A DNA stretch of 64,000 bases, from assembly GCA_000004985.1 (NCBI GenBank), contig GG738927.1. One strand, 5' to 3'. This document shows positions 39,427 to 55,769 of the stretch, in pieces. A program made the translations under genes and the position numbers. The notes beneath the pieces are model-generated. The model was given only the letters and a program-made list of their open reading frames with translations, ran no database searches and was not told the origin of the DNA. The stretch's first letter is position 1. Each line of letters opens with the position of its first letter. Source of the DNA: Naegleria gruberi (lineage: Eukaryota).

Positions 39427-40066
39427 TCTTGTTGTGTGGATTAATATTTATCAAGCGAGTGCTTTGAGTATTTTTTTTGTAAATTATTGATCAGATTTTG
39501 ATCTCATTTTAGCGCCAAAAATAGATCCGTAGACGTGTTACCTTTCCACAGCCTTGAAAAAAATTGTCGAACACGTTATTCCTCGGAGATGGACGTGTTG
39601 TTGGCACAAAACGTGTGGATAGGAGGTTAATGAAGCAGAGAAGGAATGAGTTAGGAACACGTATTGATGGTTCCTTATTTTTACAATGTTTTCAAAGTTT
39701 AAATGATGATATTTAAGAGGAACAACACGATAATTTTGATTATACATTTTAGAATGTGTTATAATTTTGTTAAATATTTACGAGATACCAAGTTTCATTT
39801 TACAAATTTTGGAGAGAACGAGAGCTGGTCGATCGAGTGGTGGTTCTAATTGAGGAGCATTGGCAGAATCTTTGAGAGATTCAGCTGTTTCCTTATTTGA
39901 GCTTTCGGCCATGAATTCTTCGAATAATTTCAAGGCATTTTCATAATGTTCTGAAAAGTATTCGAGGCAAGCATCTTGATACTTTTTCCATTTCAATAAT
40001 TGATTCTTTTGTTGCAATTCATACATCCATTCTAAAGTTTGGAAAGTCAATATTAATTAACAAAAA

Positions 40067-42514
40067 TCAGGAAAAAAACTTACCATCTTCCGAGACCTTA
40101 TTACTCGATCCCAATTCATAAATAGCCTCCTGACCAGCAATATCATTGGTAATTACGCTATCTTCAATACTATGAATATCAATTAAGGAATCAGTTTTTA
40201 CAAAAATGGAATTTTGATAAAATTGATCAGCAGCTAACATTTTCATATCGACAAATCTGGTCTGATATGTCTTACTTGCAGTTTCGAATATCCTCTCTGG
40301 AATGACTACTTGTAAATCTAAACGATGCGCAGTTTCCAATAACTTTTCCAAGTTGACTTTAGCAGAACTAATTATTGAGAAATTCTTGCTTTCTGAAGTG
40401 CCCAAATTTCCACAATATACTCTTTGGGTAGTAATTGCAAATCTGAACTGCAAATTTTCTGCCAATTGATGTGAAACCTTTTCACTCTTCTTACTGGAAT
40501 GAGATGAAAAACTGTTCGAAACCAAATTCTTTCTCACAGCTAGCAATTTCTCCTGTAAAACCTTAACAGTTGAAAGCGCCTTTTCCACATGATTCTGACT
40601 ATCTTTTGTTGTATTAAACGAAAGAATAATAATATCATTCTCAAATGCTCCAATATTAAATCCACTGCTTCGACTCTGAACATTAATTTGCTCATAAACA
40701 AGAGATAGCAAGTTGACCACCGATTTACAATCCTCTGTCTTGTACCACTGATCCAGACCGTCTAGTAAAATCCCCAGAAACGTAACTTGTTTACCTTCCA
40801 AATAGAGAGAAAACATGGAATTTTGACCTTTCTTTGAAGAGTTGGATTTTTGGGATTTGATCATATCAATCGAGCTGAACAAACCTGATTTGAAATTGCC
40901 ACTTGTTAAAATTCTGGACCTGTTTATACTTTGATGGAGAGCAGAAGAAGCTGCCTGCTGTTGTTTCCCTGTTTCATCTGATTGTCCATCTAATTCTGCT
41001 AACAAATAACTTGGAATGAAAGCTCGATACATTTTGAGTTTTTTTAACATTGCTGCAAATTGAGTTTGAACATAATTGAGCTCTGAAAAGTAACTTTTCG
41101 ATTCTTGATCTTGTAGAGCAGCATCTATATCCATGTTGGCCACTCTCTCAAACATTGTCATTAAAGTCTTGAATGGTTTTACAATACGGAATGAAAAGGC
41201 AACTCCAACCAAAACACTAACTCCGATAATTACTATACTTCCACCCAAAGCAGCCAATAGAGCAATGATAATTGGAGAAATGTAATTCCATTGTGGAGTG
41301 GACATGGCAATGACCCAATCCAAATTATATTTTGAACAAAATCTATATACGGTAATGTATTCATTAAGGGTAGAAATTTGGTAAAGAGTGTCACATTTCA
41401 ATTCTTTCAAATTTGGATAGTTTCTGTACATTTCCTTAGCCAACTTGTTATGCTCCTCAGACAAAACAGTCAACCCAGTCCTTCTAATCACATCCACCTT
41501 ATTTTCTGCCAAATAAGCCAAAGAAATCGTTCGATTATTGACAGCTATCAAATAATCAGTTTTCGTTTCTATAATAAATGCTGTCGATCTTGCAATACTC
41601 GAAACGAGATCTTCCAAGAATTTGGAGATACGTTTTAACTCCATGCTAAATGCCAAATATTTGGAAATTTCAGTTGTGGAATTTGATTTAAGCCAAGATG
41701 TCATCATGGTGACAAATGTTAAATCGGCACCGACATTATAGGAAGGAGTAAATAATGAATTGTCAGGATTTGACTTGGCAGTGGCATATAATCCAGATAA
41801 TTCAAAACTTGGCATGATCATATTAGGAGTTACTGATCTTTTGCAATAGTCGACTGTCAAACCTGCCAAACAATAATATACTTTCTGATAGGACGTGCCA
41901 ATGTCAACAAATGCTGGAATAGTTCCCCAATTAATTATTGAAATAGAACCTGTCTGATTACCAATCAAAATGGCAGAGGGCAATGCATCATGTGTTTCAA
42001 ACTCTGATTTGTAAAATTTGAACATTGACAACTCCAACTTGTCAGGATGATCCAAATCATCTTCGTGAATTTGACTTTTGGCAGTATTGACAACTAGCAC
42101 AATTTCCTGAACTGTTTTTTCGATATAGGAACGAACAGATTCGAATTCATTCTTTCGAATAGTTGATGAGAGAGATGTGATTGCTGGACCGAAACTTGAC
42201 AGCCAAGTTGCTGAGATAATTAAAGCTGACAGGACAACTAGGATTGTAATCATGGAAATGATAAAGAATTTGACAGATCTGAAACAGCTGACAGTTTTTT
42301 CATTCTTGACATTCTCAGCTAGGGAACCATCAGAATCTGCATTCGAAACTTCTTCGACATTTTGCTTTAATCCAGAAAATGATTTTTGGTTGACAGCTGT
42401 CACGACTGAATAACGTAGAGCATATGTATTCTTGGAATTGGTTGAAAGGTTGAGTGGATTCTCTATGGATTGTCGAATACTGGCAGGAACGACTTTACTA
42501 CTCGAATAAACCAT
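40067..42514 (-). CDS. Receptor-like membrane protein: TM, a ~300-aa extracellular sensor region, TM, a HAMP-like linker, and a C-terminal class III nucleotidyl cyclase-homology domain that is possibly degenerate.
   Basis: Two hydrophobic segments flank a large loop. After TM2 comes a HAMP-like amphipathic segment (FRIVKPFKTLMTMFERVANMDIDAALQDQESKSYFSELNYVQTQFAAMLKKL). The C-terminal region shows the cyclase-homology-domain layout (VTFLGILLDGLDQW... ...FRFAITTQRVYCGNLGTSESKNFSIISSAKVNLEKLLE, compared with RIGIHTGPVVAGVVG.....Y.LFGDTVNTASRMES). Confidence 0.55.
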   Translation of the reverse strand: MVYSSSKVVPASIRQSIENPLNLSTNSKNTYALRYSVVTAVNQKSFSGLKQNVEEVSNADSDGSLAENVKNEKTVSCFRSVKFFIISMITILVVLSALIISATWLSSFGPAITSLSSTIRKNEFESVRSYIEKTVQEIVLVVNTAKSQIHEDDLDHPDKLELSMFKFYKSEFETHDALPSAILIGNQTGSISIINWGTIPAFVDIGTSYQKVYYCLAGLTVDYCKRSVTPNMIMPSFELSGLYATAKSNPDNSLFTPSYNVGADLTFVTMMTSWLKSNSTTEISKYLAFSMELKRISKFLEDLVSSIARSTAFIIETKTDYLIAVNNRTISLAYLAENKVDVIRRTGLTVLSEEHNKLAKEMYRNYPNLKELKCDTLYQISTLNEYITVYRFCSKYNLDWVIAMSTPQWNYISPIIIALLAALGGSIVIIGVSVLVGVAFSFRIVKPFKTLMTMFERVANMDIDAALQDQESKSYFSELNYVQTQFAAMLKKLKMYRAFIPSYLLAELDGQSDETGKQQQAASSALHQSINRSRILTSGNFKSGLFSSIDMIKSQKSNSSKKGQNSMFSLYLEGKQVTFLGILLDGLDQWYKTEDCKSVVNLLSLVYEQINVQSRSSGFNIGAFENDIIILSFNTTKDSQNHVEKALSTVKVLQEKLLAVRKNLVSNSFSSHSSKKSEKVSHQLAENLQFRFAITTQRVYCGNLGTSESKNFSIISSAKVNLEKLLETAHRLDLQVVIPERIFETASKTYQTRFVDMKMLAADQFYQNSIFVKTDSLIDIHSIEDSVITNDIAGQEAIYELGSSNKVSEDGKFFS

Positions 42515-42941
42515 AATGCTGAGTTTCGTAGAGTTTCGTCTATTTTCGACTTTGAATGTTTTAAGGTTTAAAGTTGTTTTTTTTCGTTGTGAGTAAAAAG
42601 GTTTTGAAATCGTCAGAGTTTAATGAAGAATGAAATATCCTTAGAGATAGCCATGAAGCAAACACATTCCCGCGCAAAGTTATACGAAACTCATTGGTCA
42701 ATCGACTTGGTTGCAAAAAATCAAAAAAGTATTTAGAACTCCATATCAGAAATGGTTCAATGCATATTCGTCAACTAAATTAAAATACAAACTCGGTTTT
42801 CGTGATTAGAGGACTTTCGTGTTGAGGTTTCGTATAAATCAACCAACATCAAAATTTTAATAGCAATTTACATTTAGAAATGAGAAAATCGTAATTCGTT
42901 CATTTCAGAATATGAAAATTTAATGTCATTTGAGGTTGAAA

Positions 42942-44321: not shown

Positions 44322-46676
44322 ATGAAAACAAGACAAATAACGCCGAGCCCTCTAACGATTTCATCATCTTCAAATCGTCCCGAAAAACATTCGAATAATA
44401 ACATTAAAACTTGCTGCTTTGGAAGAAACTTTAGTTTACGAGTGAAAACTACTTTCGTATTAATTATAATGTTTCTCGGATTGATGGCACTTTGTCTGGG
44501 GATTTTACTAGCTGCCTTTTTCGTGGTTTTTCAAAATGTGGAATATCAACAAGCTAAAGAAGCAAGTAAACGAGTTTCTCGAGCATTATTGGACGATTTG
44601 AATTATTTACAGTCAAAAGTATTCGAATTTGGAGCATTTGATGATACAGTTTCCGTCTATGAAAATCTCACTCAGGAAAATATTGGAAATTACACTGAAA
44701 TGTATTGGCACTGTGTTTATTTAAATAGTGTGAATGTGAATATGGCTTTTCTTTATTCGAAAGATGGAACTTTAATTACAAAAGTTCATTGCTTTAAGGG
44801 GCAAATGATAGAACAAGTTCCTGATGAGTTTTCAAGTTTGGAAAAGAATTCGTATGGAAATTTCTTTTTACAAGATATTGAAAATGTTTGGAGTAGGAAA
44901 TCTGGAATTTTAATTCCAAAAAAGACAATTTTTGAGATGGCAACTTCTGATGAATCGAGGAATTTCCTTTCGAGTTATGAATCGAATGTGACGAATATTG
45001 TGTTGGTAGCTGCAATGCCAGTGCAGAGTACAAATTATGATTATTCGAGAGGTTTAGTCTTGTTTGCCAAGTATCAATTGGATGAACATGCTTTGGATAT
45101 GGCTGAAAGAACTCAACTTTGCATGACCATGATGAATTTGAAAAACGAAACTGACCTCTATTCATTCAAGGAATCGATTGGATCGTTGGATACGAATGCA
45201 TTTTCGAGTGGAACTGATTGGAAAGTAACAAATATTACAACCTCATCCTATTTAACTGATTGGATTGATAACGAATCGTCGTTGGTTCAGTTTTTGGACT
45301 CGAGTGAAGAAAATTCAGTGAAATTGAATAATCGTCAATGTTGGAAAGATAATATGAATGATGAAAGTTCTGTTTCCTTCAATGCTGGATCTCCTACCGA
45401 TAGAATGGCTTCCTATCAAGCATTCTACACACTAGATGGAGAAAAGTCACTCATTATTCGATCCGATATTCCAAGAAAGACATTTCAAATAGGAATGGCA
45501 TCATTTCTAGTTGTTTGGTCAGTCATGACTTTTATGATTGTTGTCATGTCAATTGCCATTGTCTGTTTTGTGGAAATGATAGTTCTGAGAAGAGTCATCT
45601 CACTATCAAGTACTGTACAACGTGTGCACGACACTGTTAATTATGCAATTAGAGCTCCAAAACTAGGAAATGATGAACTAGGTCAATTATCCAAAGATCT
45701 TAACACCATGCTCGGAGAGATTGAACATGTGCAAAATCAACTCGAAAAGGACAATACAGTGATGCAGGATTTATTGGAGAAGACTGCTCTCGAAGAGGCC
45801 AAGAGTAGATGCGTCATGAATAGTATTGACGATTTCATTGTAACTGTTGACTGCTCAAATGGCATGCTTCTCAATATCAACCTCTCATTTGAGAGTAGAA
45901 TCTTGAGAAAACAGAGAGCTTCCGTAAATTTTGAAGCACTCCCCTTCAATCAAGCTGTCTTTGCCTATTTTAAGGAAATTCCATCATTGGAATTGCTTTT
46001 ACAAAAATTGGAAAATCTTGCCACGACTGGATCACATTGGGAAACTACCATTCTATCAGGATTTGGATTGAATATTCCAGTACATGTCACTGCTAAAAGA
46101 ATTAAGGTAATTATGGGTAAATTCACACGAGTGGATGCATACATGATTGTTGCCAGAAATTTGAGCGATCAAAACGAAATGAAACAAACCATCAAGAACA
46201 AACAAGATAAACTCGATGAAATGAAACAACATTCTGACTTTGACAGATACATGACAGATCCAATACTAAGACAACAATTTAAGGAATTTTGCACTAAGGA
46301 ACGAGCTGAGGAAAATGTCATCTTTTTGGAACAAGTAATGGAATATAAGAAATTATCAAGAACTCACGAAAGAGCCAAGAAACAAAAGGAAATTATTGAA
46401 ATGTTTCTTTCTGAAAATTCAGCAACACCAATCAATATTTCAAAACAAGTTTTTACAACAGAAGTGAAGAAAATTTTGGAAGGTTTTGGCCAATTACAAC
46501 TTTTTGATAATTTAGAAACAATTATTAAGAGTATGCTCATTTTGGATAAGTTTAAGAGATTTATTTCACAATTTGAAACAAGTCAAATGACGACCATTGA
46601 TACGGACAACATGTCTAGCTCAGGATCAATCGCATCAGATGCCAGTTATCAACACACTTTTACATCAACTGATTAA
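44322..46676 (+). CDS. Receptor-like membrane protein: TM, a ~340-aa extracellular sensor region, TM, HAMP, a PAS-like domain and an RGS domain.
   Basis: The HAMP sequence immediately follows TM2 (VLRRVISLSSTVQRVHDTVNYAIRAPKLGNDELGQLSKDLNTMLGEIE). The RGS-domain signature is ILRQQFKEFCTKERAEENVIFLEQVMEYKKL...IIEMFLSENSATPINIS....KKILE. Confidence 0.65.
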   Translation: MKTRQITPSPLTISSSSNRPEKHSNNNIKTCCFGRNFSLRVKTTFVLIIMFLGLMALCLGILLAAFFVVFQNVEYQQAKEASKRVSRALLDDLNYLQSKVFEFGAFDDTVSVYENLTQENIGNYTEMYWHCVYLNSVNVNMAFLYSKDGTLITKVHCFKGQMIEQVPDEFSSLEKNSYGNFFLQDIENVWSRKSGILIPKKTIFEMATSDESRNFLSSYESNVTNIVLVAAMPVQSTNYDYSRGLVLFAKYQLDEHALDMAERTQLCMTMMNLKNETDLYSFKESIGSLDTNAFSSGTDWKVTNITTSSYLTDWIDNESSLVQFLDSSEENSVKLNNRQCWKDNMNDESSVSFNAGSPTDRMASYQAFYTLDGEKSLIIRSDIPRKTFQIGMASFLVVWSVMTFMIVVMSIAIVCFVEMIVLRRVISLSSTVQRVHDTVNYAIRAPKLGNDELGQLSKDLNTMLGEIEHVQNQLEKDNTVMQDLLEKTALEEAKSRCVMNSIDDFIVTVDCSNGMLLNINLSFESRILRKQRASVNFEALPFNQAVFAYFKEIPSLELLLQKLENLATTGSHWETTILSGFGLNIPVHVTAKRIKVIMGKFTRVDAYMIVARNLSDQNEMKQTIKNKQDKLDEMKQHSDFDRYMTDPILRQQFKEFCTKERAEENVIFLEQVMEYKKLSRTHERAKKQKEIIEMFLSENSATPINISKQVFTTEVKKILEGFGQLQLFDNLETIIKSMLILDKFKRFISQFETSQMTTIDTDNMSSSGSIASDASYQHTFTSTD

Positions 46677-46801
46677 TTTGGATAATAATTTAAACCCTTC
46701 CAATAAATTTAACACTAAATCTTTGAAATTCATGAATTAATAATTAAATTACAAAATACTGTAAATTATTAATAAAATCTAAAATTTTGAGATGAAAAAA
46801 A

Positions 46802-48112
46802 ATGAACCAACAAGAAGGACCAAATTTTTCCCTCCTCGCTTCATCATCATCGGACAATAACTTTATCGGGATGAATACACCATCATCGTCATCATCAAAT
46901 AATTCATCATCATTATCATCATTATCAAATAATATTCATGTTTGCGTTACTGGCGCAACTGGCTTTATCGCCACTCATCTCGTCTATCAATTATTAGCAA
47001 AGGGATATATTGTACATGCTACGGTTCGTTCCCTTGAAAGCGGAAGAAGAGAATTAATACAAAATATATTACAATTTGATCAGAAAAATTCAAAGGAGAA
47101 GGGAACAGGGTTATTGGTGAGTAGGGAATTGATGGAGAAGAATTTGGTGTGTTTTGAGGCTGATTTGCTCAAGTCGGGAAGTTTTGAGAAGGTAATTAAG
47201 GGATGTCGATTTGTTCATCACACTGCTTCACCTTTTAAGGTTGATGTTAAGGATCCACAGAGAGATTTAGTTGATCCTGCATTGAAGGGAACTTTGAATG
47301 TGTTGCAAGAGTGTGTTAAATTGAGAAAGAGCCAATCCAGTACTGATCCAGCAAGATTACAGAGAATTATGTTGACTAGCTCTATTGCTTCTATTGTTGA
47401 AACATCTGTTCCTGGAAAGGTTTATGATGAAACTGATTGGAATCTTGATTCTTCTGTGAATAATAATCCATATCTCTATTCGAAGGTTGTTGCTGAAAAG
47501 GCTGCTTGGACTTTAATGCAAGATGCTCAAGCTAAGAATGGTGATGACTTTTTGGAGTTAGTGACCTTGTGTCCTGCTGTTGTTATTGGACCTCCAATTA
47601 ATCCAAAACTTATCAGTCAATCTCATGAAAGTATCATGTTGATGGCCAGAGGTGAATTCCCTGTTATTTTACCACTTGATTTTGCATTTGTTGATGTTAG
47701 AGATGTTTCCAAAGCTCATATCAATGCCATGGAAAAGAATATGGACGACAAGACATACTTTGCACCATCCAAGAAGCAACGTTTCGTTGTTTCAAATGGT
47801 GTCACAACCTCAATGAAGGATTTGGTGAATCACATGAGAGAAGCATTCCCTAATCCACCATACAAATGGAACAAGAATTTGCCAACTATTAATTTGACTG
47901 GATATCTTGGAATTGGTGTTGGTAAATTAGCTGCCTTGATTCAACCAAAAGGATTGAGACAATACTTGAACTCTGTGATGGGCAAACCACAATTCTTCAA
48001 TAATAGCAAGATTAGGAATACTTTTAATTTGGACTTTATGAATTGGAAAGATAGTGTTACAGATTCTGTTAAATTTTTGGATGAAAATGGTTTCATCACT
48101 AGCAAGTTGTAA
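46802..48112 (+). CDS. NAD(P)-dependent epimerase/dehydratase-family (extended SDR) reductase, cinnamoyl-CoA/dihydroflavonol reductase-like.
   Basis: The N-terminal Rossmann motif VCVTGATGFIATHLVYQLLAKGYIVHATVR is typical of CCR/DFR-like SDRs. The ORF is 436 aa with an S-rich leader. Confidence 0.7.
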   Translation: MNQQEGPNFSLLASSSSDNNFIGMNTPSSSSSNNSSSLSSLSNNIHVCVTGATGFIATHLVYQLLAKGYIVHATVRSLESGRRELIQNILQFDQKNSKEKGTGLLVSRELMEKNLVCFEADLLKSGSFEKVIKGCRFVHHTASPFKVDVKDPQRDLVDPALKGTLNVLQECVKLRKSQSSTDPARLQRIMLTSSIASIVETSVPGKVYDETDWNLDSSVNNNPYLYSKVVAEKAAWTLMQDAQAKNGDDFLELVTLCPAVVIGPPINPKLISQSHESIMLMARGEFPVILPLDFAFVDVRDVSKAHINAMEKNMDDKTYFAPSKKQRFVVSNGVTTSMKDLVNHMREAFPNPPYKWNKNLPTINLTGYLGIGVGKLAALIQPKGLRQYLNSVMGKPQFFNNSKIRNTFNLDFMNWKDSVTDSVKFLDENGFITSKL

Positions 48113-48399
48113 TTTTATTAAAGTGTTTGTTGATGCACAAAATTGATAAAGACTAAGATTTTTGATTGTTGTGGAATTTTAAATCCTATCCGAGATTTCT
48201 GTTCTAGCTCCTCATGCATTCCAAGGTAGAGGGAAAGAGTTTCAAAGAGCTATTGTGATGGAAAGAAGTAAACAATAGCATGTCTCTGTTCAATTAGGTG
48301 CATAATTTTGTTTTCTAACAAATAAACTTGCTTCCGTAATGCTTACAAGGAATTCACACTTGCCAATTACTTGTACAAGCAAATCAAAGAAAGGAAAAA

Positions 48400-51300
48400 A
48401 TGTATTCAAACAACAACAAGTGTCATTGTGGTTTAATTGCCAAGCAAGGAACGACCTCGAAGGGAGAAAATCAGGGTAGAAAGTACACCTCCTGTTCTAA
48501 AAGTATGACTGATAAGAGTCGATGCAAATTCTTCAAGTGGTTAGATTCATCAGAACAAACAGCAACAACCAACATATCATCTTCTTCATCATCCTTCAAA
48601 AGCAATAGCAAATTACAGCACAGTGAGCAGGCTTTTGATGATACTTTGAACAAGACGATACAATTGATGAATAGAGTGCTTCCTTCTTCCTTGTTATCAT
48701 CAACAAGTGGTTCTTCTTCTTCATCATCAAATAACAAGTCTCCTTCCAACAACACTAATAGCCAGTGCTCATCTCTCACACTCTCACAATTGTGCTCCAG
48801 TATGGAAGACTTGAATATTGACAAAGATCTTTCAAAGCCTTCTTCTTCTCAAGCTATTGATAGAGACTTCATATTGAATGATAGTCTTTTTCCTTCTTCT
48901 TCTTCAGAAGCAAGCAAGAATAGTCTTCCTCTGATTGGAAACAATCAGCATAAAGGAGGAACATCATCTTCATCGTTACCAAATTCTCTCCTTGAAGAAT
49001 GTATGCAAAAGGAATTAAATAGCAAACAATTGGAGGCTGTCTGTGCTAGCGAACATGATTGTGTATGTGTTTATAGTGGACCGGGATCTGGTAAGACAAA
49101 GGTAAGTTGTTGTTATTATTGGATGGTAGAGGGAATTAATAATTAATTATTTGATGAATATTCATCTTGTGATGATGTGATGAATTTTTTTTTAATTTTT
49201 ATTTAATTTTTTTAAAAAATTCATAACGGTCATGGATCCAAATTTTAGACCATCACCAACAGGATTGCCTACTTGTGTATTGTTAAAGGAATTGAACCAA
49301 GGAATGTATTTGCCATGACTTTTACTAACAAGGCTGCTCAGGAGATGAAAACAAGACTTGTTCACCTTGTGAAATTGTACGATTTTCAAAAGAGAATTAA
49401 TGCAAAGGATTTCAGTCATATTGGAACGTTTCATGCAGTTTGTGCTAATATTTTGAGAAATGAGATGCATCATTTGACTCGTATTGTTGGATTGGATCAG
49501 AAATTTATGATATTTGATTCGGAAGAGCAGCTGTCATAATTAGGAGCTTGTACAAGTCATCAACTAATCATTCCATTAGAAGNNNNNNNNNNNNNNNNNN
49601 NNNNNNNNNNNNNNNNNNNNNNNNNNNNNNNNCTTTTAAAAAATTCGTAACGGTCATTGTAAACTTTGGGTGGATCCAAATTTTAGACCATCACCTACAG
49701 GATTGCCTACTTGTGTATTGTTAAAGGAATTGAACCAAGGAATGTATTTGCCATGACTTTTACTAACAAGGCTGCTCAGGAGATGAAAACAAGACTTGTT
49801 CACCTTGTGAAATTGTACGATTTTCAAATTAATGCAAAGGATTTCAAGACTTGTTCACCTTGTGAAATTGTACGATTTTCAAATTAATGCAAAGGATTTC
49901 AGTCATATTGGAACGTTTCATGCAGTTTGTGCTAATATTTTGAGAAATGAGATGCATCATTTGACTCGTCTTGTTGGATTGGATCAGAAATTTATGATAT
50001 TTGATTCGGAAGAGCAGCTGTCAATAATTAGGAGCTTGTACAAGTCATCAACTAATCATTTCATTAGAAGTTTACTTCCATTGAGTTTGTCTTTGGAGGA
50101 TATGGAGAAGAAACTCTCTCCAACTCTAGTTTTACAAACGATATCACGATGTAAGAATCAACAGGTTTCAGCTGATGAATATTCGAAAGCATTCCATCAA
50201 GAAATTGAGGAAACGGTCATTGCTGAACTATTTGTAGAATATCAACAGTATTTATCGAAACACAATGGGGTGGATTTTGATGATTTATTGCTTCATGTTG
50301 TGTACTTGTTTGAAAAATTCCCTCTAGTGAGAGAAAAGTATGCCAATCAATGTGAAGTATTATTGGTCGATGAATTTCAAGATATCAACAAGTTACAATA
50401 CAAGATTGCCATGCATTTGAACTCAAAGAGGAAGAACATCTTCTTGGTTGGTGATTCCGATCAAAACATTTACACTTTCAGATTCAGTGATAGCTCAATA
50501 ATGCGGGAAGTTATCAAAAAGTATGAGAAGGAGGGAAAGAGCATGAAAGTCATCATGATGAATGAAAACTATCGATCCACAAGAAGTATTGTCCAATTTT
50601 CAGACAAAATAATAGCTAGCAATTCTAACAGATTAAGAACTATCAGCTCTACCACTTCAAACACCACGGGTTTACCAGTTTCGATAGTCAGTTGCTCTGA
50701 TGAAGCCGAGTTCATTACAAATGAAATTGTAAAACTCACAAACATGAATAACAACATTCAATATTGCGACTTTGCAATCCTTATCAGAGTCAACTCTGCT
50801 TCTCGAGTATTCGAAGACATTTTTGATAGGAAAAAGTTGCCTTACAGAATTTTGAATTCCACAAGATTTTACGACTCTATGGAAGTGAAAGATATTCTTT
50901 CCTATGCAAAAGCTATTGCAAATCCAGATAATGATCACTTCCTGTTGAGCTGTGTGAATGTTCCAAGAAGATGCATCACTGAGGAGACAAAGTCCAAGTT
51001 GATAAAGCTTGCAGCTCAGAATAAGATGTCTCTGAGGTCAATTATCAAGAATCATAACAAGGAAATTGCTGGACATCTAGGAGCCAATGAGTTACAAACA
51101 CTCATTTCCACAATAGATTTTATCGAAAAGTCTCAAATTAATCTTCATTCTCCTTCAACTATTATGCAAGATATTATTCGGGTGATTGATTATGAATCCT
51201 ACTTGAAATTCACACAGAAGAATATGTTCGAAACAAGATGGGAGAATTTGAAAGAGTTAATTAACATGTGTCAAGAATTTGAGTCCAAATCAACCATTCC

Positions 51301-52570
51301 CTCAATTTCATCATTTTTACAAAGCATTTCAATTTCCACAGAGATGGAACCAATTTCAAAAGATTCATCAAATTCCATTACAATTTCCACAATCCATGCA
51401 GCCAAAGGTTTAGAATTTGGAATTGTATTTGTGGCAGGAGTTGAGAAGGGAAATATTCCATACTACAAAGCTCAGGAAAAGAATGAAATAGAGGAAGAGA
51501 GAAGATTACTGTTCGTTGCCTGTACAAGGGCTCAGTCCTTACTCTGTTTAACCAATTCCAAAACAAGATTCAGACTTGGAAAGAGTTACAACACTCAGAG
51601 TTCTGAGTTTTTGAGCATAATTCTCTCTAATCAATTCACATTCTATTCTAATTCATCATTAGCGACTCTATTGAGTGATAATTCCATATCTCAATTAAGA
51701 TATGAGACTATTAATCATTTAGTAGCTTGCAGAGACAAGAAATCTAAACAAAATCTTTCTTCCTCCTCGGATATTCTGACAAAAGATCTGAAACGAGTTA
51801 AAAATATGGAAAGTTTCGAACCTACAACCGAATCAAGCAACGTTCCAGAATATTGGTTCAATAAGGAACGATTCAAGATTGTGGACGTAACAGATACTAT
51901 GAAATTAACCATTCAAGACTTGATGGATAATTCATGTGAAAAGAAAACTCTTGGAAGTGGAAAGGATCAAACGTATTTCAAGAAACAATACACTCAATTG
52001 GAAGTTATCAAAGTGGAACGAGTTGAAAATCCAAATCTCTACGGATTATATCAAGCCAAACAATCTCAAATGAAATCTTTCAAGGATAATCCCCAACCCA
52101 TCCCAGTCAAAACTGTGGAAAAAGTTCCACCCAACTCAACAGCCAAAACCTGGATTCAAAGTGTAAAATTATGCCAACAAGTTAATGAAAAATTCTTTTG
52201 GCACGGCACTGATTCACAAGTTGTGAGCATTATTTGTGAACATGGTTTAGATGCAAGAGTGAGCTCACTTTCTGGACTATTCGGTGCAGGAATTTATTTT
52301 GCAGAATATTGTTCCAAGAGTGATCAATACTGCTCGCCAACGAATGATCTTTTTCACATGTTTCTCTGTCGAGTCATGATTGGTAATCAAATTGAAACTC
52401 TTGAAAAGGGAAAATCTCTCAATAATATTCGAAGACCAAGTGTCATTCCAAACACCAATGGACGAACATTTGATAGTATTCTAGGAAAACCAAACATGTA
52501 CAAGGAATTTGTAGTTTACGATAGTTGCCAATGCTATCCAGAATTTCTAATTACTTATAAAAGGAAATAA
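48400..52570 (+). CDS. Three-domain fusion: zf-GRF zinc finger + UvrD/Rep-type SF1 DNA helicase + C-terminal PARP catalytic domain with an H-Y-E triad. Exon 1 is 48400..49101 and exon 2 begins at 49249 (copy A) or 49687 (copy B). The coding sequence is interrupted by a scaffold gap and a duplicated, misassembled block, then is continuous from 49832 to 52570.
   Basis: The zf-GRF pattern is [27 protein letters not shown]...CKFFKWLD. Walker A is SGPGSGKTK, followed by GTAAGT (49102). The helicase motifs are Ia [49 protein letters not shown], and [19 protein letters not shown]...[13 protein letters not shown]. The PARP segment reads [47 protein letters not shown] (compared with PARP1 LLWHGSR...[21 protein letters not shown]), then [11 protein letters not shown] (PARP1 LLGEVALGNMYE) and [19 protein letters not shown]. 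Confidence 0.75.
49192..50060. repeat. Near-identical duplicated block flanking the gap (about 49192-49582 vs 49633-50060), plus a tandem 55-bp internal duplication (49792-49846 and 49847-49901). This is most likely an assembly or haplotype artefact inside the helicase gene.
   Basis: The copies differ by a 1-nt indel (ctgtcataatt vs ctgtcaataatt), a 6-nt indel (caaaagagaatt vs caaattaat), and one substitution (TITNR vs TITYR). The 55-bp unit is not a multiple of 3, so it breaks the frame. Confidence 0.7.
49583..49632. other. Scaffold/assembly gap, a run of 50 N.
   Basis: Seen directly in the sequence. Confidence 0.98.
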
Positions 52571-52763: not shown

Positions 52764-55700
52764 ATGGAACAACGACCAAACGAAGAGCACGTGCTGAAGG
52801 AAGCATCGACGACGTGTTCGTTATTATCATCATCATCACTATCATCAGCTTTTCGGAAAGTATCAGGAGGTGAAGAAGGAATGAATTTGAATGATTCATC
52901 GTCATCTTCTACGAGTACATGCAATAATAATCATAATAATTGTAATCGACGACATCGTCATTATCAAGAGGGAGGGCTTTCGGCATTGCCTAATGAAATT
53001 TATTTACATATATTTTCATTTGCACTTGATCCATTTTCTCTAATCGGAAGTGTGGCTAGTATTAGACATGTGAACAAATGTTGGTTTGAATTGACGGAAT
53101 CGGAATTCTTTTGGAAGGAAATTGTTATTAGATTGTTGAGACAAAAGATGATGGTGGAGAGTACGGAAGATGGTGTTGATACTCAGCAGAAGGAGGATAT
53201 TGAACAATTGAATGCAGAATATGAGGAATTGAGTAATAATTATGAAGATTTTGATGAATTTATGCAAGAATTATCGAATAGGTTTTACAAGACACATGAA
53301 TTTATTGATAATTTGATATATAATACTAGAACGAGCAGATACTCGGTATTTTATAAGAAGAATGATCGATTTATTGGATGGAAAAAGTATGATGATGTGG
53401 AAAGTATTGAAGAATATGATTCAGAGGAAGAAGGAGATGATATTAATGTGGGACCAAATCTTTTCGATAAATCCAAGGAATGGATAGATAGTTGCGGAGA
53501 GGAGCATCATACAGGAAATGTATTATTGCAAGCATGTTTGGAAATCATTTTAGGCCATGAGATGGTAGAACATTTGGGAATGAAATCGTGTGGAGTTTTC
53601 ATTCAACAATTTTTCTCAAAGCTTTTCGAACCAGCAATCAAAATGATTAAAACACAGAAAGAGGCAGGAACCAAGTTGAATGTGGTGGAATTGGAAAAAA
53701 CTCCAATCTTGAATAGAAACCTACTCAACTTCATCAAGGAAAATGGAAGATGCTCCAAATTATTCCAGCAAAAAATTACAAATAATTGGAATCTTTTTGA
53801 TGAACATTACTGTACAATACCAAGGCAGTATATTCTCTTTATGGTTGAACATTTTTCGAGAGTTAAAGTCAGAGAGGGAGCATGTGAAATGAATGCAGTT
53901 AAATACATTTGCAAATCTCTCAGAGATTGTGGAATTAAAATCGAGGACTTGTGCTTTATAGGTGACAATGTAATGCCAAACTTTGAGTACACAAATGGAT
54001 TGAGGTCTATGGTAAGATCTGGAAGTGGTGTTTTCTTATTGACTCATTTGGCAGTTTGGACAGAAAATTACGAGCTATTGGACTGGGCATTAACAGTGAA
54101 AAATAAGGAAGGAGATGTTACTCTGTATGATTTAGTAACCTCAACCCTGGCAGAGCATATTAATGCAGATCAAATGGACCACATAGATAGAGTTATTCCA
54201 AAAGATCTCACTGTAAAGTCGTACATTATGGCTCATCTTTCACCTGTTGAAGTGAAAACATACCTTCTCAATGAAGCTGTCATGATGAACAATGTGGAGA
54301 TGGTAAGGCACTTGTGTGACAAGTATTTGTGTAATCCATTTGGACCTTGGGAACACAAGTATTCCTCTCCTTTGCAGTATGCTCTGATGCAAAGTATGCA
54401 CGCCTCACTCTCCAAACATAATAACGAACAAAAGATTGTGGAAATTTTCGAGAAAAAGTATGGACACTCTGATAATTACAAAACTGAAATAGAAATTGCT
54501 AAAAAACTGAGTGCACAACGGAGAGTAACCTCAGAGACATGCTCATTGTGTTCTTGCTTGACCAGTGATAAAACTGCATTGGCTTACGAGAAAAAGTATG
54601 GAGGTGTCTACAAACCAAATATTGAGGAAGAGAATTATGAACATGTTGAAATGAAACGAAATTTCGTATTAGAAGAAGAGACAATAGCGCCTGTGATTTC
54701 ACTTGATGTACCAGGGGTACCATATGATGGTACTGAGTCAGATGAGGATGATACCGAAGAGTGCATGTCAATTCCATGGCTTCGTCACTATGTTCATAAT
54801 AAGAAGAGAAAGAGAGCTCACAATGATCCAGTTATTGACACTATAATTAAGGAAAAGGAAATAATGGGACCAGTGACGGACATTGTATCGAACTTTGAGA
54901 GTGTCAATGAGCATACTGACTTTGCTGATGATTTCTATATAGAGGTCAAAGCTCTAAATAGGACATGGGATCGCAGCAAGAGGATTAAATTAGATGAAGA
55001 TGCACCAAACGAGAAGTTTACCACTACTAGAGACTCTCTCTGTTTTTCTAAACTTAATTTTAGAGAAGTAGTCCAAGCAGAATTAAGAAGACAAAAAACG
55101 GATGTCTTTCTCAGTCCACATGCAAAAATGTTGGTCCAACAAGCTGCAGAAGATTTTATTGAACATCAAATCTATCGTCTCAATAATGAAATGACCTATG
55201 GAGAGCCATCTGATACTCAGACTGGCCGAGCCAAGACATTATTTACTGATAAGTTTACGGGAACACTGTACTTCCGATATCAATTCTTTAGAAATTGTGA
55301 AATTCATGATCAGCTTTCAACATTTGCCTTTGGAAAACATAATCTAGTATTTGAGGAAATTGTAAAACTTCTTAATGCCTTGATAGAGGAAGAGGAAGAT
55401 GACGAAGAGGATGATTTGGATTATCCATGTGATCATCTCTCTGTTAATTCTGATGATTCCATGTTATCATGCACTGCCTTAGAGTTTGGAGAAAATCATG
55501 AAGAGGGATTATTCAGAATGCCAAAGAACTTTATGGTTTACACTGATTTGGAGAATTTAAAATATTCTAAATCATTTGTTGGAGATGATGGTTATGAGAG
55601 AATTCTTGCTACTGAGATTCATCAAAACACAAAACATCACATTGTCACAAGTTCTGATCCTAAACTAATTACTAGTTGGGCTGACAATATTACAATCCAT

Positions 55701-55769
55701 GATTCTGGAAACGAACATAACTTGTATGAAACTAAATTATTACAATCTCAACTCGAAAAAAATAGATAA
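52764..55769 (+). CDS. F-box domain protein, 1001 aa.
   Basis: An N-terminal S-rich leader is followed by an F-box-like segment (LSALPNEIYLHIFSFALDPFSLIGSVASIRHVNKCWFELTE). The remainder is unassigned, with an acidic EDDEEDD patch near the C-terminus. Confidence 0.5.
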   Translation: MEQRPNEEHVLKEASTTCSLLSSSSLSSAFRKVSGGEEGMNLNDSSSSSTSTCNNNHNNCNRRHRHYQEGGLSALPNEIYLHIFSFALDPFSLIGSVASIRHVNKCWFELTESEFFWKEIVIRLLRQKMMVESTEDGVDTQQKEDIEQLNAEYEELSNNYEDFDEFMQELSNRFYKTHEFIDNLIYNTRTSRYSVFYKKNDRFIGWKKYDDVESIEEYDSEEEGDDINVGPNLFDKSKEWIDSCGEEHHTGNVLLQACLEIILGHEMVEHLGMKSCGVFIQQFFSKLFEPAIKMIKTQKEAGTKLNVVELEKTPILNRNLLNFIKENGRCSKLFQQKITNNWNLFDEHYCTIPRQYILFMVEHFSRVKVREGACEMNAVKYICKSLRDCGIKIEDLCFIGDNVMPNFEYTNGLRSMVRSGSGVFLLTHLAVWTENYELLDWALTVKNKEGDVTLYDLVTSTLAEHINADQMDHIDRVIPKDLTVKSYIMAHLSPVEVKTYLLNEAVMMNNVEMVRHLCDKYLCNPFGPWEHKYSSPLQYALMQSMHASLSKHNNEQKIVEIFEKKYGHSDNYKTEIEIAKKLSAQRRVTSETCSLCSCLTSDKTALAYEKKYGGVYKPNIEEENYEHVEMKRNFVLEEETIAPVISLDVPGVPYDGTESDEDDTEECMSIPWLRHYVHNKKRKRAHNDPVIDTIIKEKEIMGPVTDIVSNFESVNEHTDFADDFYIEVKALNRTWDRSKRIKLDEDAPNEKFTTTRDSLCFSKLNFREVVQAELRRQKTDVFLSPHAKMLVQQAAEDFIEHQIYRLNNEMTYGEPSDTQTGRAKTLFTDKFTGTLYFRYQFFRNCEIHDQLSTFAFGKHNLVFEEIVKLLNALIEEEEDDEEDDLDYPCDHLSVNSDDSMLSCTALEFGENHEEGLFRMPKNFMVYTDLENLKYSKSFVGDDGYERILATEIHQNTKHHIVTSSDPKLITSWADNITIHDSGNEHNLYETKLLQSQLEKNR

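What the first reader, a model, noticed from the sequence alone, without database searches (positions are those of the whole stretch)
48400..52570. Single gene fusing a zf-GRF zinc finger, a UvrD/Rep SF1A helicase and a PARP catalytic domain with an intact H-Y-E triad
Read through one GTAAGT intron, the locus encodes an N-terminal GRF-type zinc finger, a complete UvrD-family helicase core, and a C-terminal ADP-ribosyltransferase domain. The PARP domain retains the H-G-T, Y-Y and glutamate positions, and the PARP1-like C-terminal strand VVYD. This implies poly- rather than mono-ADP-ribosylation capacity. A UvrD-type 3'-5' helicase covalently coupled to a PARP writer, with a nick/ssDNA sensor finger, is not among the canonical eukaryotic PARP or UvrD-like architectures that I know of. 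It would be a self-contained damage sensor-remodeller-signaller. ERCC1 lies 14 kb upstream, but that is probably coincidental.
Basis: partly seen in the sequence, partly recalled or inferred. Interest (0 to 1): 0.85.

Follow-up and report, generated by a model that had tools for sequence, protein, structure and literature searches.

The report
Unannotated Naegleria GRF–PcrA helicase–PARP fusion gene
This stretch of the Naegleria gruberi genome encodes one protein that joins a single-strand-DNA-binding zinc finger, a complete bacterial-type DNA helicase and an ADP-ribose-writing enzyme domain, a combination found in no other sequence searched and apparently missed by the public annotation because an assembly gap cuts through it.

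Summary
The window is Naegleria gruberi NEG-M. Exon 1 (48400-49101), a GTAAGT...TAG intron (49102-49248) and the remaining coding sequence to the TAA at 52568-52570 give a 1178-aa conceptual protein. Pfam scores four domains above their cut-offs: Zn_ribbon_GRF (aa 7-50), UvrD-helicase plus UvrD_C (206-843) and PARP (980-1176). The helicase aligns end to end with PcrA and keeps every motif. The PARP domain keeps H1057-Y1088-E1158 and models as a tankyrase/PARP15-like fold without the PARP1 regulatory domain.

Neither domain junction depends on the splice or the gap. GRF and helicase motif I share exon 1. The helicase C-terminal half and PARP share one 912-codon ORF.

No helicase+PARP protein appeared in three large protein searches or in 80 metagenome loci of this PARP family. 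The probable N. lovaniensis orthologue and the Willaertia relatives lack both GRF and PARP.

Caveats:
- The 50-N gap is flanked by two imperfect copies of about 390 bp. Each copy alone is frame-broken, so the intact ORF requires merging them.
- There is no transcript evidence.
- H-Y-E does not prove poly-ADP-ribosylation.

This is a new domain architecture built from known parts and seen in one species. Interest is moderate.

The parts
48400..49101 (+). Exon 1: start codon, GRF zinc finger, Ser/Asn-rich linker, and the start of the helicase including the Q motif and motif I
   Evidence: A single ORF from the ATG at 48400. The 5' 292 nt are 96% identical in an independent metagenome contig (L003), with only in-frame 3-nt indels.
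48418..48549 (+). GRF zinc finger (aa 7-50; Cys8, Cys10, Cys32, Cys42; 'GRKY' motif)
   Evidence: Pfam PF06839, 35.0 bits against a cut-off of 25.9. Matches the NEIL3 GRF domains 7omk/7jl5 at E about 6e-6 to 9e-6 and more weakly APE2 5u6z. 100% conserved in L003.
48550..49014 (+). Low-complexity Ser/Asn-rich linker (aa 51-205), probably disordered
   Evidence: Direct reading of the translation; no Pfam match.
49078..49101 (+). Helicase motif I (Walker A), GPGSGKTK, the last codons of exon 1
   Evidence: aligned to PcrA AGAGSGKTR.
49102..49248 (+). Intron, GTAAGT...TTTTAG, phase 0, 147 nt, 22% GC
   Evidence: An intron lies at the identical position (after GSGKTK, before TIT) in the N. lovaniensis gene (L001).
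49249..49582 (+). Start of exon 2, left-contig copy (motifs Ia and Ib); 1-nt deletion near 49529
49583..49632 (.). Run of 50 N: a scaffold gap between two overlapping contig ends
   Evidence: it is the only N run in the window.
49633..50070 (+). Right-contig copy of 49210-49582 (3' end of the intron plus the start of exon 2). It contains a perfect 55-nt tandem duplication at 49790-49901 that breaks the frame
   Evidence: Pairwise alignment; TRF period 55, 2.0 copies, 100% match.
50024..51607 (+). Rest of the PcrA/UvrD helicase core: motifs II (VDEFQD, 50366), III (GDSDQNIY, 50450), IV (NYRST, 50567), V (IHAAKGLEF, 51392), VI ([12 protein letters not shown], 51497)
   Evidence: Pfam UvrD-helicase and UvrD_C. 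End-to-end alignment to PcrA 1pjr residues 4-641, E 1.9e-109. Coordinates.
51608..51841 (+). Helicase-PARP junction (aa 859-936), no recognisable domain. It contains Met925 (51806), positioned like the start codon of the stand-alone paralogues
   Evidence: 0 stops in frame against 9 and 8 in the other frames. Modelled as low-confidence or disordered. Comparison with P0284.
51842..52567 (+). PARP catalytic module of a protist 'PxYW...HGT...GAGIYFAE...SKSDQY...YREFVVYD' family. H1057 is at 52202-52204, Y1088 at 52295-52297 and E1158 at 52505-52507
   Evidence: Pfam PF00644, 89.2 bits. Family alignments. AF2 model with pLDDT 81. Foldseek best matches are TNKS1/2 and PARP15/12/14. Coordinates.
52568..52570 (+). 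Stop codon TAA; the next gene (an F-box-like protein) starts at 52764

Best explanation
This is a real, lineage-specific Naegleria gruberi gene encoding a protein of about 1178 aa. From N to C terminus it has a GRF zinc finger, a disordered Ser-rich linker, a complete and apparently active bacterial-type PcrA/UvrD SF1A helicase core, a linker of about 78 aa, and an HD-less tankyrase/PARP15-like ADP-ribosyltransferase domain with an H-Y-E triad.

Inferred origin: an ancestral heterolobosean PcrA-like helicase ended in an acidic SIM-like motif plus a basic tail. That tail was replaced when a stand-alone PARP gene of a mobile protist PARP family became joined in frame. Met925 sits where such genes start. 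The GRF finger was added at the N terminus.

Inferred mechanism: the GRF finger and the helicase 1A/2A domains load the protein on single-stranded DNA at gaps, nicks or stalled forks. The motor translocates 3'-5', as PcrA, UvrD and Srs2 do when they clear recombinase filaments. The tethered PARP domain has no autoinhibitory helical domain. It ADP-ribosylates itself and/or proteins met on the ssDNA, which would mark the site or release the enzyme. Whether it makes mono- or poly-ADP-ribose is open.

Shown here: the domain content, intact catalytic motifs, open frame across both junctions, the conserved intron position, and absence of the fusion elsewhere. Inferred: expression, enzymatic activities, substrates and biological role.
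For: - Organism: the neighbouring ORF is identical to N. gruberi XP_002669407.1.
- Domains: all four score above the Pfam cut-offs.
- Helicase: E 1.9e-109 to PcrA 1pjr over residues 4-641, with motifs Q, I, Ia, Ib, II, III, IV, V and VI conserved.
- GRF finger: matches the NEIL3 and APE2 GRF domains, which bind ssDNA (PMC9561275).
- PARP domain: H-Y-E by alignment. E, the SKS lysine and the triad Tyr are invariant in the family. The AF2 model has pLDDT 81 and its best fold matches are TNKS1/2 and PARP15/12/14.
- GRF-helicase junction: GRF and motif I lie in one exon.
- Helicase-PARP junction: the helicase C-terminal half and PARP lie in one 912-codon ORF. The junction has 0 stops against 9 and 8 in the other frames, P about 0.003.
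- The intron position is conserved in N. lovaniensis.
- An independent contig 96% identical at the nucleotide level keeps the GRF exon open, with only in-frame indels.
- The PARP part is only 46-50% identical to its nearest paralogues yet keeps all family-invariant residues. It is therefore a diverged, selected copy and not a recent mis-join.
- Microsynteny: a window gene at 39781-42619 matches the gene immediately upstream of the N. lovaniensis helicase P0001. P0001 lacks GRF and PARP; P0136 and the Willaertia relatives lack PARP, and P0002 and P0003 also lack GRF. P0001, P0136 and P0002 share the SIM-like tail.
- No helicase+PARP protein was found, and no helicase lies in 80 metagenome loci of this PARP family.
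Against: - There is no transcript or protein evidence, and no gene model for the locus was found in the protein collections searched.
- The intact ORF needs the two copies flanking the gap to be merged. The right copy's perfect 55-nt duplication is not a typical base-calling error and could be a real frame-breaking allele.
- The fusion is seen in a single genome.
- Met925 could allow a PARP-only product.
- H-Y-E does not establish polymer synthesis (PMC10711553).
- Orthology with P0001 rests on partial synteny and 44% identity.
Confidence: 0.7

Rival explanations
1. Recently disabled gene or null allele. The 55-nt tandem duplication in the right copy and/or the 1-nt deletion in the left copy are real. 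The locus then no longer makes the full tri-domain protein. It could make at most a GRF fragment, or an N-terminally truncated product from the ATG at 49832 that lacks motifs I and Ia.
For: The 55-nt duplication is perfect, with 100% match over 2.0 copies, which is unlike low-quality base calls. Neither copy alone is in frame. No annotated protein or transcript-derived protein for the locus was found.
Against: The two defects lie at different places, each confined to a contig end, and the left copy shows that the unduplicated sequence exists. Downstream, 912 codons stay open with every helicase and PARP motif intact, against 59-71 stops in the other frames. Any inactivation would therefore have to be very recent or limited to one allele.
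Confidence: 0.13
2. Two functional units in one reading frame. The helicase (with GRF) and the PARP module are mainly expressed separately, for example from an internal promoter with initiation at Met925. The covalent fusion would then be a minor or incidental read-through product of two formerly adjacent genes.
For: Met925 lies 12 residues before the PxYW motif. The stand-alone paralogue P0284 starts 17 residues before its own PxYW motif. The junction has the lowest GC of the coding region, 0.28-0.32. All other members of this PARP family that were found are short proteins.
Against: No stop codon ends the helicase frame anywhere before the PARP domain. The 78-codon junction is open only in this frame. 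Real intergenic spacers of similar size in the window carry 2-7 stops in every frame.
Confidence: 0.12
3. Assembly chimera: the PARP-encoding sequence belongs to another locus and was mis-joined to the helicase gene.
For: The locus contains a gap and unmerged duplicated contig ends, so the local assembly is imperfect.
Against: The helicase-PARP junction (51608-51841) lies about 2 kb inside a gap-free contig that runs from 49633 to the end of the window. The PARP part is at most 50% identical to every known paralogue, so it is not a copy of another annotated locus. The frame is continuous.
Confidence: 0.03

Closest known systems
Bacterial PcrA/UvrD/Rep (SF1A 3'-5' DNA helicases)
   Same: The full 1A/1B/2A/2B core aligns end to end with G. 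stearothermophilus PcrA (1pjr residues 4-641, E 1.9e-109) with all motifs conserved. After the heterolobosean relatives, the next best hits are bacterial PcrA at about 33-38% identity.
   Different: It is eukaryotic and contains an intron. It lacks the C-terminal PcrA/UvrD Tudor domain (PF21196 is present in most bacterial hits but absent here). It carries an N-terminal GRF finger and a C-terminal PARP domain.
Tankyrases (PARP5a/b) and the PARP15/12/14 catalytic domains
   Same: It has the HD-less PARP catalytic fold. These are the best sequence matches (PARP15 58 bits, PARP12 56, PARP14 52, TNKS1 49.5) and the best fold matches. FGAGIYFAE, SKSxQY and YPE[FY]LITY are shared with tankyrase (own knowledge of the tankyrase sequence), and it has H-Y-E like tankyrase.
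   Different: It has no ankyrin repeats and no SAM domain. PARP15/12/14 have H-Y-L/I, not H-Y-E. It has a family-specific N-terminal PxYW extension and an insertion of roughly 40 aa before HGT. By reading the sequence against my own knowledge of tankyrase, it also lacks the tankyrase zinc-binding insertion.
Stand-alone Naegleria PARPs (JGI 80603 = P0122; probably JGI 72525 = P0284) and their relatives fused to other modules
   Same: Same PARP family, 45-51% identical. They were described as unplaced, H-Y-E-retaining short PARPs in Citarelli 2010 (PMC2964712). The module occurs joined to various partners: kinase, ricin-B lectin, ankyrin, EF-hand, WW and SAM.
   Different: None of the 146 family members found is joined to a helicase or a GRF finger. 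All of those listed are at most 521 aa.
GRF-finger DNA-repair proteins (APE2, NEIL3, TOP3A, ZGRF1)
   Same: It has a single GRF zinc ribbon with intact Cys ligands and the GR-x-aromatic motif. This domain binds ssDNA in APE2 and NEIL3 (PMC9561275). ZGRF1 also pairs a GRF finger with an SF1 helicase (own knowledge).
   Different: The ZGRF1 helicase is Upf1/Sen1-like (SF1B, 5'-3'), not UvrD-like. Here AAA_11 and AAA_12 score far below the UvrD models. None of these proteins has a PARP domain.
Eukaryotic UvrD-like anti-recombinases Srs2, FBH1 and PARI/PARPBP
   Same: All are UvrD-family proteins acting on ssDNA/Rad51 intermediates (own knowledge). Human PARI/PARPBP interacts directly with PARP-1, PCNA and RAD51 (PMC7692344). 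A covalent UvrD-PARP fusion would be a 'Rosetta stone' counterpart of that interaction. Three helicase relatives without PARP (P0001, P0136, P0002) end in an Srs2-like acidic SIM-type tail (the SIM reading is an inference).
   Different: This protein has no F-box, although an F-box protein is a separate gene downstream. No PIP or SIM motif was identified in the N. gruberi protein. The helicase core is closer to bacterial PcrA than to anything else found. Anti-recombinase activity was not tested.

Membership tests
UvrD/PcrA/Rep SF1A helicases | N-terminal and C-terminal UvrD helicase domains (1A/1B and 2A/2B) scoring above the Pfam cut-offs | tested here: met
   PF00580 233.5 bits and PF13361 192.3 bits; end-to-end alignment to PcrA 1pjr.
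UvrD/PcrA/Rep SF1A helicases | Intact catalytic motifs Q, I (GxGKT), Ia, II (DExQD), III (GDxxQxIY), IV (YRS), V, VI (TRA) | tested here: met
   [48 protein letters not shown] and [12 protein letters not shown] are all aligned to the PcrA motifs. Motifs Ia and Ib are read from the merged copies at the gap.
UvrD/PcrA/Rep SF1A helicases | C-terminal Tudor domain of bacterial PcrA/UvrD (the RNA polymerase-binding domain) | tested here: not met
   No PF21196 hit, although most bacterial hits carry it. The position is occupied by the linker and the PARP domain.
UvrD/PcrA/Rep SF1A helicases | ATP-dependent 3'-5' translocation and unwinding | not testable with these tools
   Needs biochemistry.
PARP (ARTD) catalytic family | PARP catalytic domain profile match and ART fold | tested here: met
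   PF00644 89.2 bits against a cut-off of 26.7. AF2 model pLDDT 81. Foldseek E about 3e-15 to TNKS1, with TNKS2, PARP15 and PARP12 close behind.
PARP (ARTD) catalytic family | H-Y-E NAD+-binding and catalytic triad | tested here: met
   H1057, Y1088 and E1158. E aligns with the triad position of PARP15 and is invariant in the family alignment.
PARP (ARTD) catalytic family | Poly- (rather than mono-) ADP-ribose synthesis | not testable with these tools
   H-Y-E and the K903-equivalent lysine (SKSDQY) are present. PARP3 and PARP4 show that H-Y-E is not sufficient (PMC10711553).
PARP1/2/3-type DNA-dependent PARPs | WGR domain plus helical regulatory (HD/PRD) domain upstream of the ART fold | tested here: not met
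   No WGR or PARP_reg Pfam hit. PARP1 matches only part of the domain at about 28-30 bits. The model has no helical domain before the ART fold.
Tankyrases | Ankyrin repeat clusters plus a SAM domain N-terminal to the catalytic domain | tested here: not met
   No Ank or SAM hits. Only the catalytic domain resembles tankyrase.
zf-GRF domain proteins | GRF zinc ribbon profile match with four zinc ligands and the GRxF/Y motif | tested here: met
   PF06839 35.0 bits against a cut-off of 25.9. C8, C10, C32, C42 and 'GRKY' read directly. Matches the NEIL3 GRF domains at E about 6e-6 to 9e-6.
zf-GRF domain proteins | ssDNA binding | not testable with these tools
   Inferred from APE2 and NEIL3 (PMC9561275).
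ZGRF1-type GRF helicases | Upf1/Sen1-like SF1B helicase core (AAA_11/AAA_12) | tested here: not met
   AAA_11 scores 17.1 bits, below its cut-off of 27. AAA_12 scores 28.9 bits, marginally above its cut-off of 27. The UvrD models score 192-233 bits.
FBH1 (F-box UvrD helicase) | F-box within the helicase polypeptide | tested here: not met
   No F-box hit in the protein. An F-box-like domain lies in the separate downstream gene 52764-55766.

The most novel reading that the evidence does not exclude
The protein is a motor-coupled ADP-ribosyl writer. The PcrA-type translocase carries an unregulated (HD-less) H-Y-E PARP domain along single-stranded DNA. ADP-ribose would then be laid down processively on recombinase or RPA filaments, or on DNA ends themselves, at gaps and stalled forks. 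That would merge into one polypeptide the UvrD-like helicase and PARP partnership seen in trans in human PARI(PARPBP)-PARP1. It would be the first helicase-PARP enzyme and a natural Rosetta-stone link between anti-recombinase helicases and ADP-ribosylation.
Probability: 0.15. Interest if true: 0.75.

Novelty: new variant of a known kind. Interest (0 to 1): 0.5.

Why it matters
PARP catalytic domains are known with many partner domains. No helicase-PARP protein appears in the eukaryotic PARP surveys consulted (PMC2964712, PMC4245714) or in the sequence collections searched here.

If the protein is made and active, it offers a compact natural experiment on how ADP-ribosylation is coupled to ssDNA translocation and filament clearing. 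It would also support, by gene-fusion logic, a functional link between UvrD-like helicases and PARPs, of which the human PARI-PARP1 interaction is an example in trans.

On the practical side, a 3.5-kb gene in the N. gruberi reference appears to be unannotated because of an unmerged contig overlap. The PARP repertoire listed for this model organism (six in Citarelli 2010) would then be incomplete.

The significance is limited by occurrence in one species, the unresolved gap region and the lack of expression data.

Tried and rejected
- Exact look-up of the 912-aa ORF and of the downstream gene product found neither in the collection. A contig look-up for the neighbouring CAD-like gene product found nothing on record, so the public gene calls at the locus could not be inspected.
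- A metagenome scan with query-specific peptides found no close relatives.
- A viral-contig scan with the PARP family profile found nothing, so there is no sign of giant-virus origin.
- A PADLOC scan gave only generic UvrD (GajB-type) helicase hits, weaker than the match to PcrA. No defence-system PARP model matched. I rejected a defence-system reading.
- Literature searches for UvrD + PARP + Naegleria, UvrD/PARP fusions, and PARP catalytic domain + helicase domain + Heterolobosea found nothing describing this architecture. The library is limited to open-access texts.
- I tested whether ERCC1 and this gene are part of a repair-gene cluster. The other large ORFs scanned in the window are unrelated: DUF4116, BTB, SAPS, RGS/CHASE4/HAMP, saccharopine dehydrogenase-like and teneurin-like. 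Rejected.
- I considered membership in the PARP1-like, tankyrase, ZGRF1 and FBH1 families. For each, a defining feature was tested and not met (see the membership table).
- I looked for cryptic introns in the long ORF. The only strong GTAAGT donor is the one at 49102. A GTAAGA at 50151 lies inside conserved helicase sequence.

Full report
**Source and gene model**

The window is AT-rich (34% GC) eukaryotic DNA. The ORF at 46802-48109 is identical to Naegleria gruberi NEG-M XP_002669407.1 on a 174-kb scaffold.

The flagged locus reads as follows:
- Exon 1 is 48400-49101.
- A phase-0 intron runs 49102-49248 (GTAAGT...TTTTAG, 22% GC).
- Coding sequence then continues to the TAA at 52568-52570.

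The only N run in the window (49583-49632, 50 N) lies inside the helicase-coding part. The sequence on either side, 49210-49582 and 49633-50070, is the same roughly 390 bp twice, with a few substitutions and indels. The left copy has a 1-nt deletion about 54 nt from its end. The right copy has a 14-nt insertion in the intron, a 6-nt in-frame deletion and a perfect 55-nt tandem duplication at 49790-49901.

Neither copy alone is in frame. Merging them gives a 1178-aa protein that is collinear with PcrA and with the heterolobosean relatives, with nothing missing. I read the gap as an unmerged contig overlap or two haplotypes. This is the main technical weakness of the locus.

**Domain content**

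Pfam places four domains above their curated cut-offs:

| Domain | Residues | Bits |
|---|---|---|
| Zn_ribbon_GRF | 7-50 | 35.0 (cut-off 25.9) |
| UvrD-helicase | 206-497 | 233.5 |
| UvrD_C | 507-843 | 192.3 |
| PARP | 980-1176 | 89.2 (cut-off 26.7) |

- *GRF finger.* It has four Cys ligands and a GRKY motif. It matches the NEIL3 GRF domains (E about 6e-6 to 9e-6) and, more weakly, APE2.
- *Helicase.* It aligns with Geobacillus PcrA (1pjr) over residues 4-641 at E 1.9e-109. Motifs Q, I, Ia, Ib, II, III, IV, V and VI are all conserved. The bacterial C-terminal Tudor domain is absent.
- *PARP domain.* H1057, Y1088 and E1158 occupy the triad positions. In the alignment to PARP15, the query E pairs with the PARP15 triad leucine. 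E, the SKS lysine and the triad Tyr are invariant, and H nearly invariant, in the family alignment.
- *Structure.* An AlphaFold2 model of aa 896-1178 has mean pLDDT 81. Its best fold matches are tankyrase 1/2 and PARP15/12/14. Sequence matches rank the same way, and PARP1 matches only partially.

The domain is therefore an HD-less tankyrase/PARP15-like ART fold, not a PARP1-like one.

**Is it one gene?**

Neither domain junction depends on the splice or the gap. GRF and helicase motif I (GPGSGKTK) lie in one exon. The helicase C-terminal half, the linker and PARP lie in one 912-codon ORF (49832-52570) that has no internal stop, against 59 and 71 stops in the other two frames. The 78-codon junction (51608-51841) has 0 stops in frame, against 9 and 8 out of frame. 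Real intergenic spacers and the intron carry 2-7 stops in every frame. The chance of an open junction from base composition is about 0.003.

Three further observations support the model:
- The intron position, immediately after GSGKTK, is shared with the annotated N. lovaniensis gene.
- An independent 2.3-kb metagenome contig (L003, ENA ERZ929261) is 96% identical to window 46295-48691. It carries the first 292 nt of the gene with the GRF codons unchanged and only 3-nt indels. The upstream spacer shows 16 gap columns.
- The PARP part is at most 50% identical to any paralogue yet keeps all family-invariant residues. It is a diverged, constrained copy, not a mis-assembled duplicate.

**Is the architecture found elsewhere?**

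- A word-indexed search of 5.8 billion proteins with the full protein returned N. lovaniensis P0001 (44%, helicase only), two Willaertia magna proteins, and then bacterial PcrA at about 33-36%. None had a PARP domain.
- An exhaustive phmmer search of 1.84 billion cluster representatives with the 912-aa ORF gave 150 top hits whose best-matching stretch lay in the helicase part. A relative with both domains would have outranked them.
- The linker-plus-PARP query found 13 relatives, all at most 521 aa.
- A profile of the PARP family found 146 members; all of those listed are under 500 aa. Their partner domains include ricin-B lectin, EF-hand, WW and SAM. The earlier searches also showed ankyrin and kinase partners. 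No helicase was among them.
- Eighty metagenome loci of this PARP family, about 18 of them with at least 2 kb upstream of the match, contain no UvrD or GRF sequence.
- Viral contigs gave nothing.
- Citarelli 2010 lists six N. gruberi PARPs (58866, 71853, 72525, 80022, 80603, 81181). Models 72525 and 80603 are short stand-alone members of this same family (80603 = P0122; 72525 is probably P0284), and neither is this locus; I did not inspect the other four sequences individually. Perina 2014 does not mention such a protein.
- No N. gruberi protein covering this locus turned up in any search. The gene appears to be unannotated, plausibly because of the gap.

**Origin (inference)**

A window gene at 39781-42619 on the minus strand matches the gene immediately upstream of P0001 in N. 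lovaniensis. Both neighbourhoods also contain an RGS-domain gene. P0001 is therefore the probable orthologue.

P0001 lacks GRF and PARP; P0136 (N-terminally truncated) and the Willaertia relatives lack PARP, and P0002 and P0003 also lack GRF. Instead, P0001, P0136 and P0002 end in a conserved motif, [VI][IC][LI]D followed by an acidic/Ser run and then a basic tail. I read this as SIM-like plus an NLS. In N. gruberi that tail is replaced by the PARP module.

Met925 lies 12 residues before the family's PxYW motif. The stand-alone paralogue P0284 starts 17 residues before its own. The simplest history is an in-frame join of the helicase gene to a formerly independent PARP gene in the N. gruberi lineage, plus acquisition of the GRF finger.

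**Mechanism (inference from the domain families)**

GRF fingers bind ssDNA and fork structures (PMC9561275). PcrA, UvrD and Srs2 are 3'-5' ssDNA translocases that unwind from nicks and gaps and clear recombinase filaments (established knowledge). HD-less PARP domains are not autoinhibited by a helical domain (established knowledge for tankyrase and the mono-ARTs).

The most likely function is an ssDNA-targeted helicase that ADP-ribosylates itself and/or proteins it meets, which would signal the lesion or control its own residence time. PARP3 and PARP4 have H-Y-E but are mono-transferases, and acceptor-site residues matter (PMC10711553). The lysine equivalent to PARP1 K903 is retained, so poly activity is possible.

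Human PARI/PARPBP interacts directly with PARP-1, PCNA and RAD51 (PMC7692344), and is a UvrD-like protein (own knowledge). The fusion is a plausible Rosetta-stone counterpart of that interaction.

**Rivals**

1. A recently disabled gene or null allele, if the 55-nt duplication is real (0.13).
2. Mainly separate expression of the helicase and PARP, with initiation at Met925 (0.12).
3. An assembly chimera (0.03), unlikely because the junction lies 2 kb inside a gap-free contig.

**Verdict**

The locus encodes a new domain architecture built from known domains, found in a single species, probably unannotated, without expression or biochemical evidence, and with an unresolved assembly overlap inside the helicase. 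Interest is 0.5.

Noticed in passing
window 32990-34873 (-): ERCC1/Rad10 homologue (PF03834, 81 bits, plus an HhH motif), 13.5 kb upstream of the fusion gene. No other repair genes were found among the large ORFs scanned in the window, so the proximity looks coincidental.
   Followed up: partly
window 52764-55766 (+): The gene immediately downstream encodes a 1001-aa protein with an F-box-like domain (PF12937, 31.6 bits). This is curious because FBH1 in other eukaryotes is an F-box plus UvrD helicase. No evidence of a link was sought.
   Followed up: no
L002 2431-7763 (ENA contig NODE_869; the protein is labelled N. fowleri in nr): The closest PARP relative (P0121, kinase remnant + coiled coil + PARP) lies about 2 kb downstream of two ORFs with ADP-ribosylglycohydrolase domains (PF03747). 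This may be a writer-eraser gene neighbourhood.
   Followed up: no
P0001 (L001 8001-10596), P0136, P0002: C-terminal 40-60 residues: Heterolobosean PcrA-like helicases without PARP share a conserved tail, [VI][IC][LI]D followed by an acidic/Ser run and then a basic stretch. It resembles a SUMO-interaction motif plus an NLS, as in the Srs2 C-terminus. The N. gruberi fusion protein lacks it.
   Followed up: partly
P0003 (Willaertia magna), N-terminal ~90 residues: The second Willaertia PcrA-like paralogue has a long basic, hydroxylated N-terminal extension that looks like an organellar presequence. This hints at a mitochondrial PcrA-type helicase in Heterolobosea and a bacterial or organellar origin for the family.
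   Followed up: no
L003 (ENA ERZ929261, run ERR1078381, PRJEB11402), 1-2339: A metagenome contig 96.2% identical to window 46295-48691. It shows that an N. gruberi-like strain is present in that sample, and further contigs from it might cover the rest of the fusion gene.
   Followed up: partly
window 44322-46673 (+) and L001 3082-6176 (+): A membrane protein with CHASE4-like (21 bits) and HAMP (23 bits) matches, both below their Pfam cut-offs, plus an RGS domain (57 bits) lies two genes upstream. An RGS-domain gene also lies near the N. lovaniensis helicase orthologue, which suggests rearranged microsynteny.
   Followed up: partly
P0126 and P0127 (alignment A1, columns ~520-530): Two members of the PARP family have Thr in place of the triad His (WTG instead of WHG) while keeping Y and E. 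They may be inactive or altered-specificity variants.
   Followed up: no
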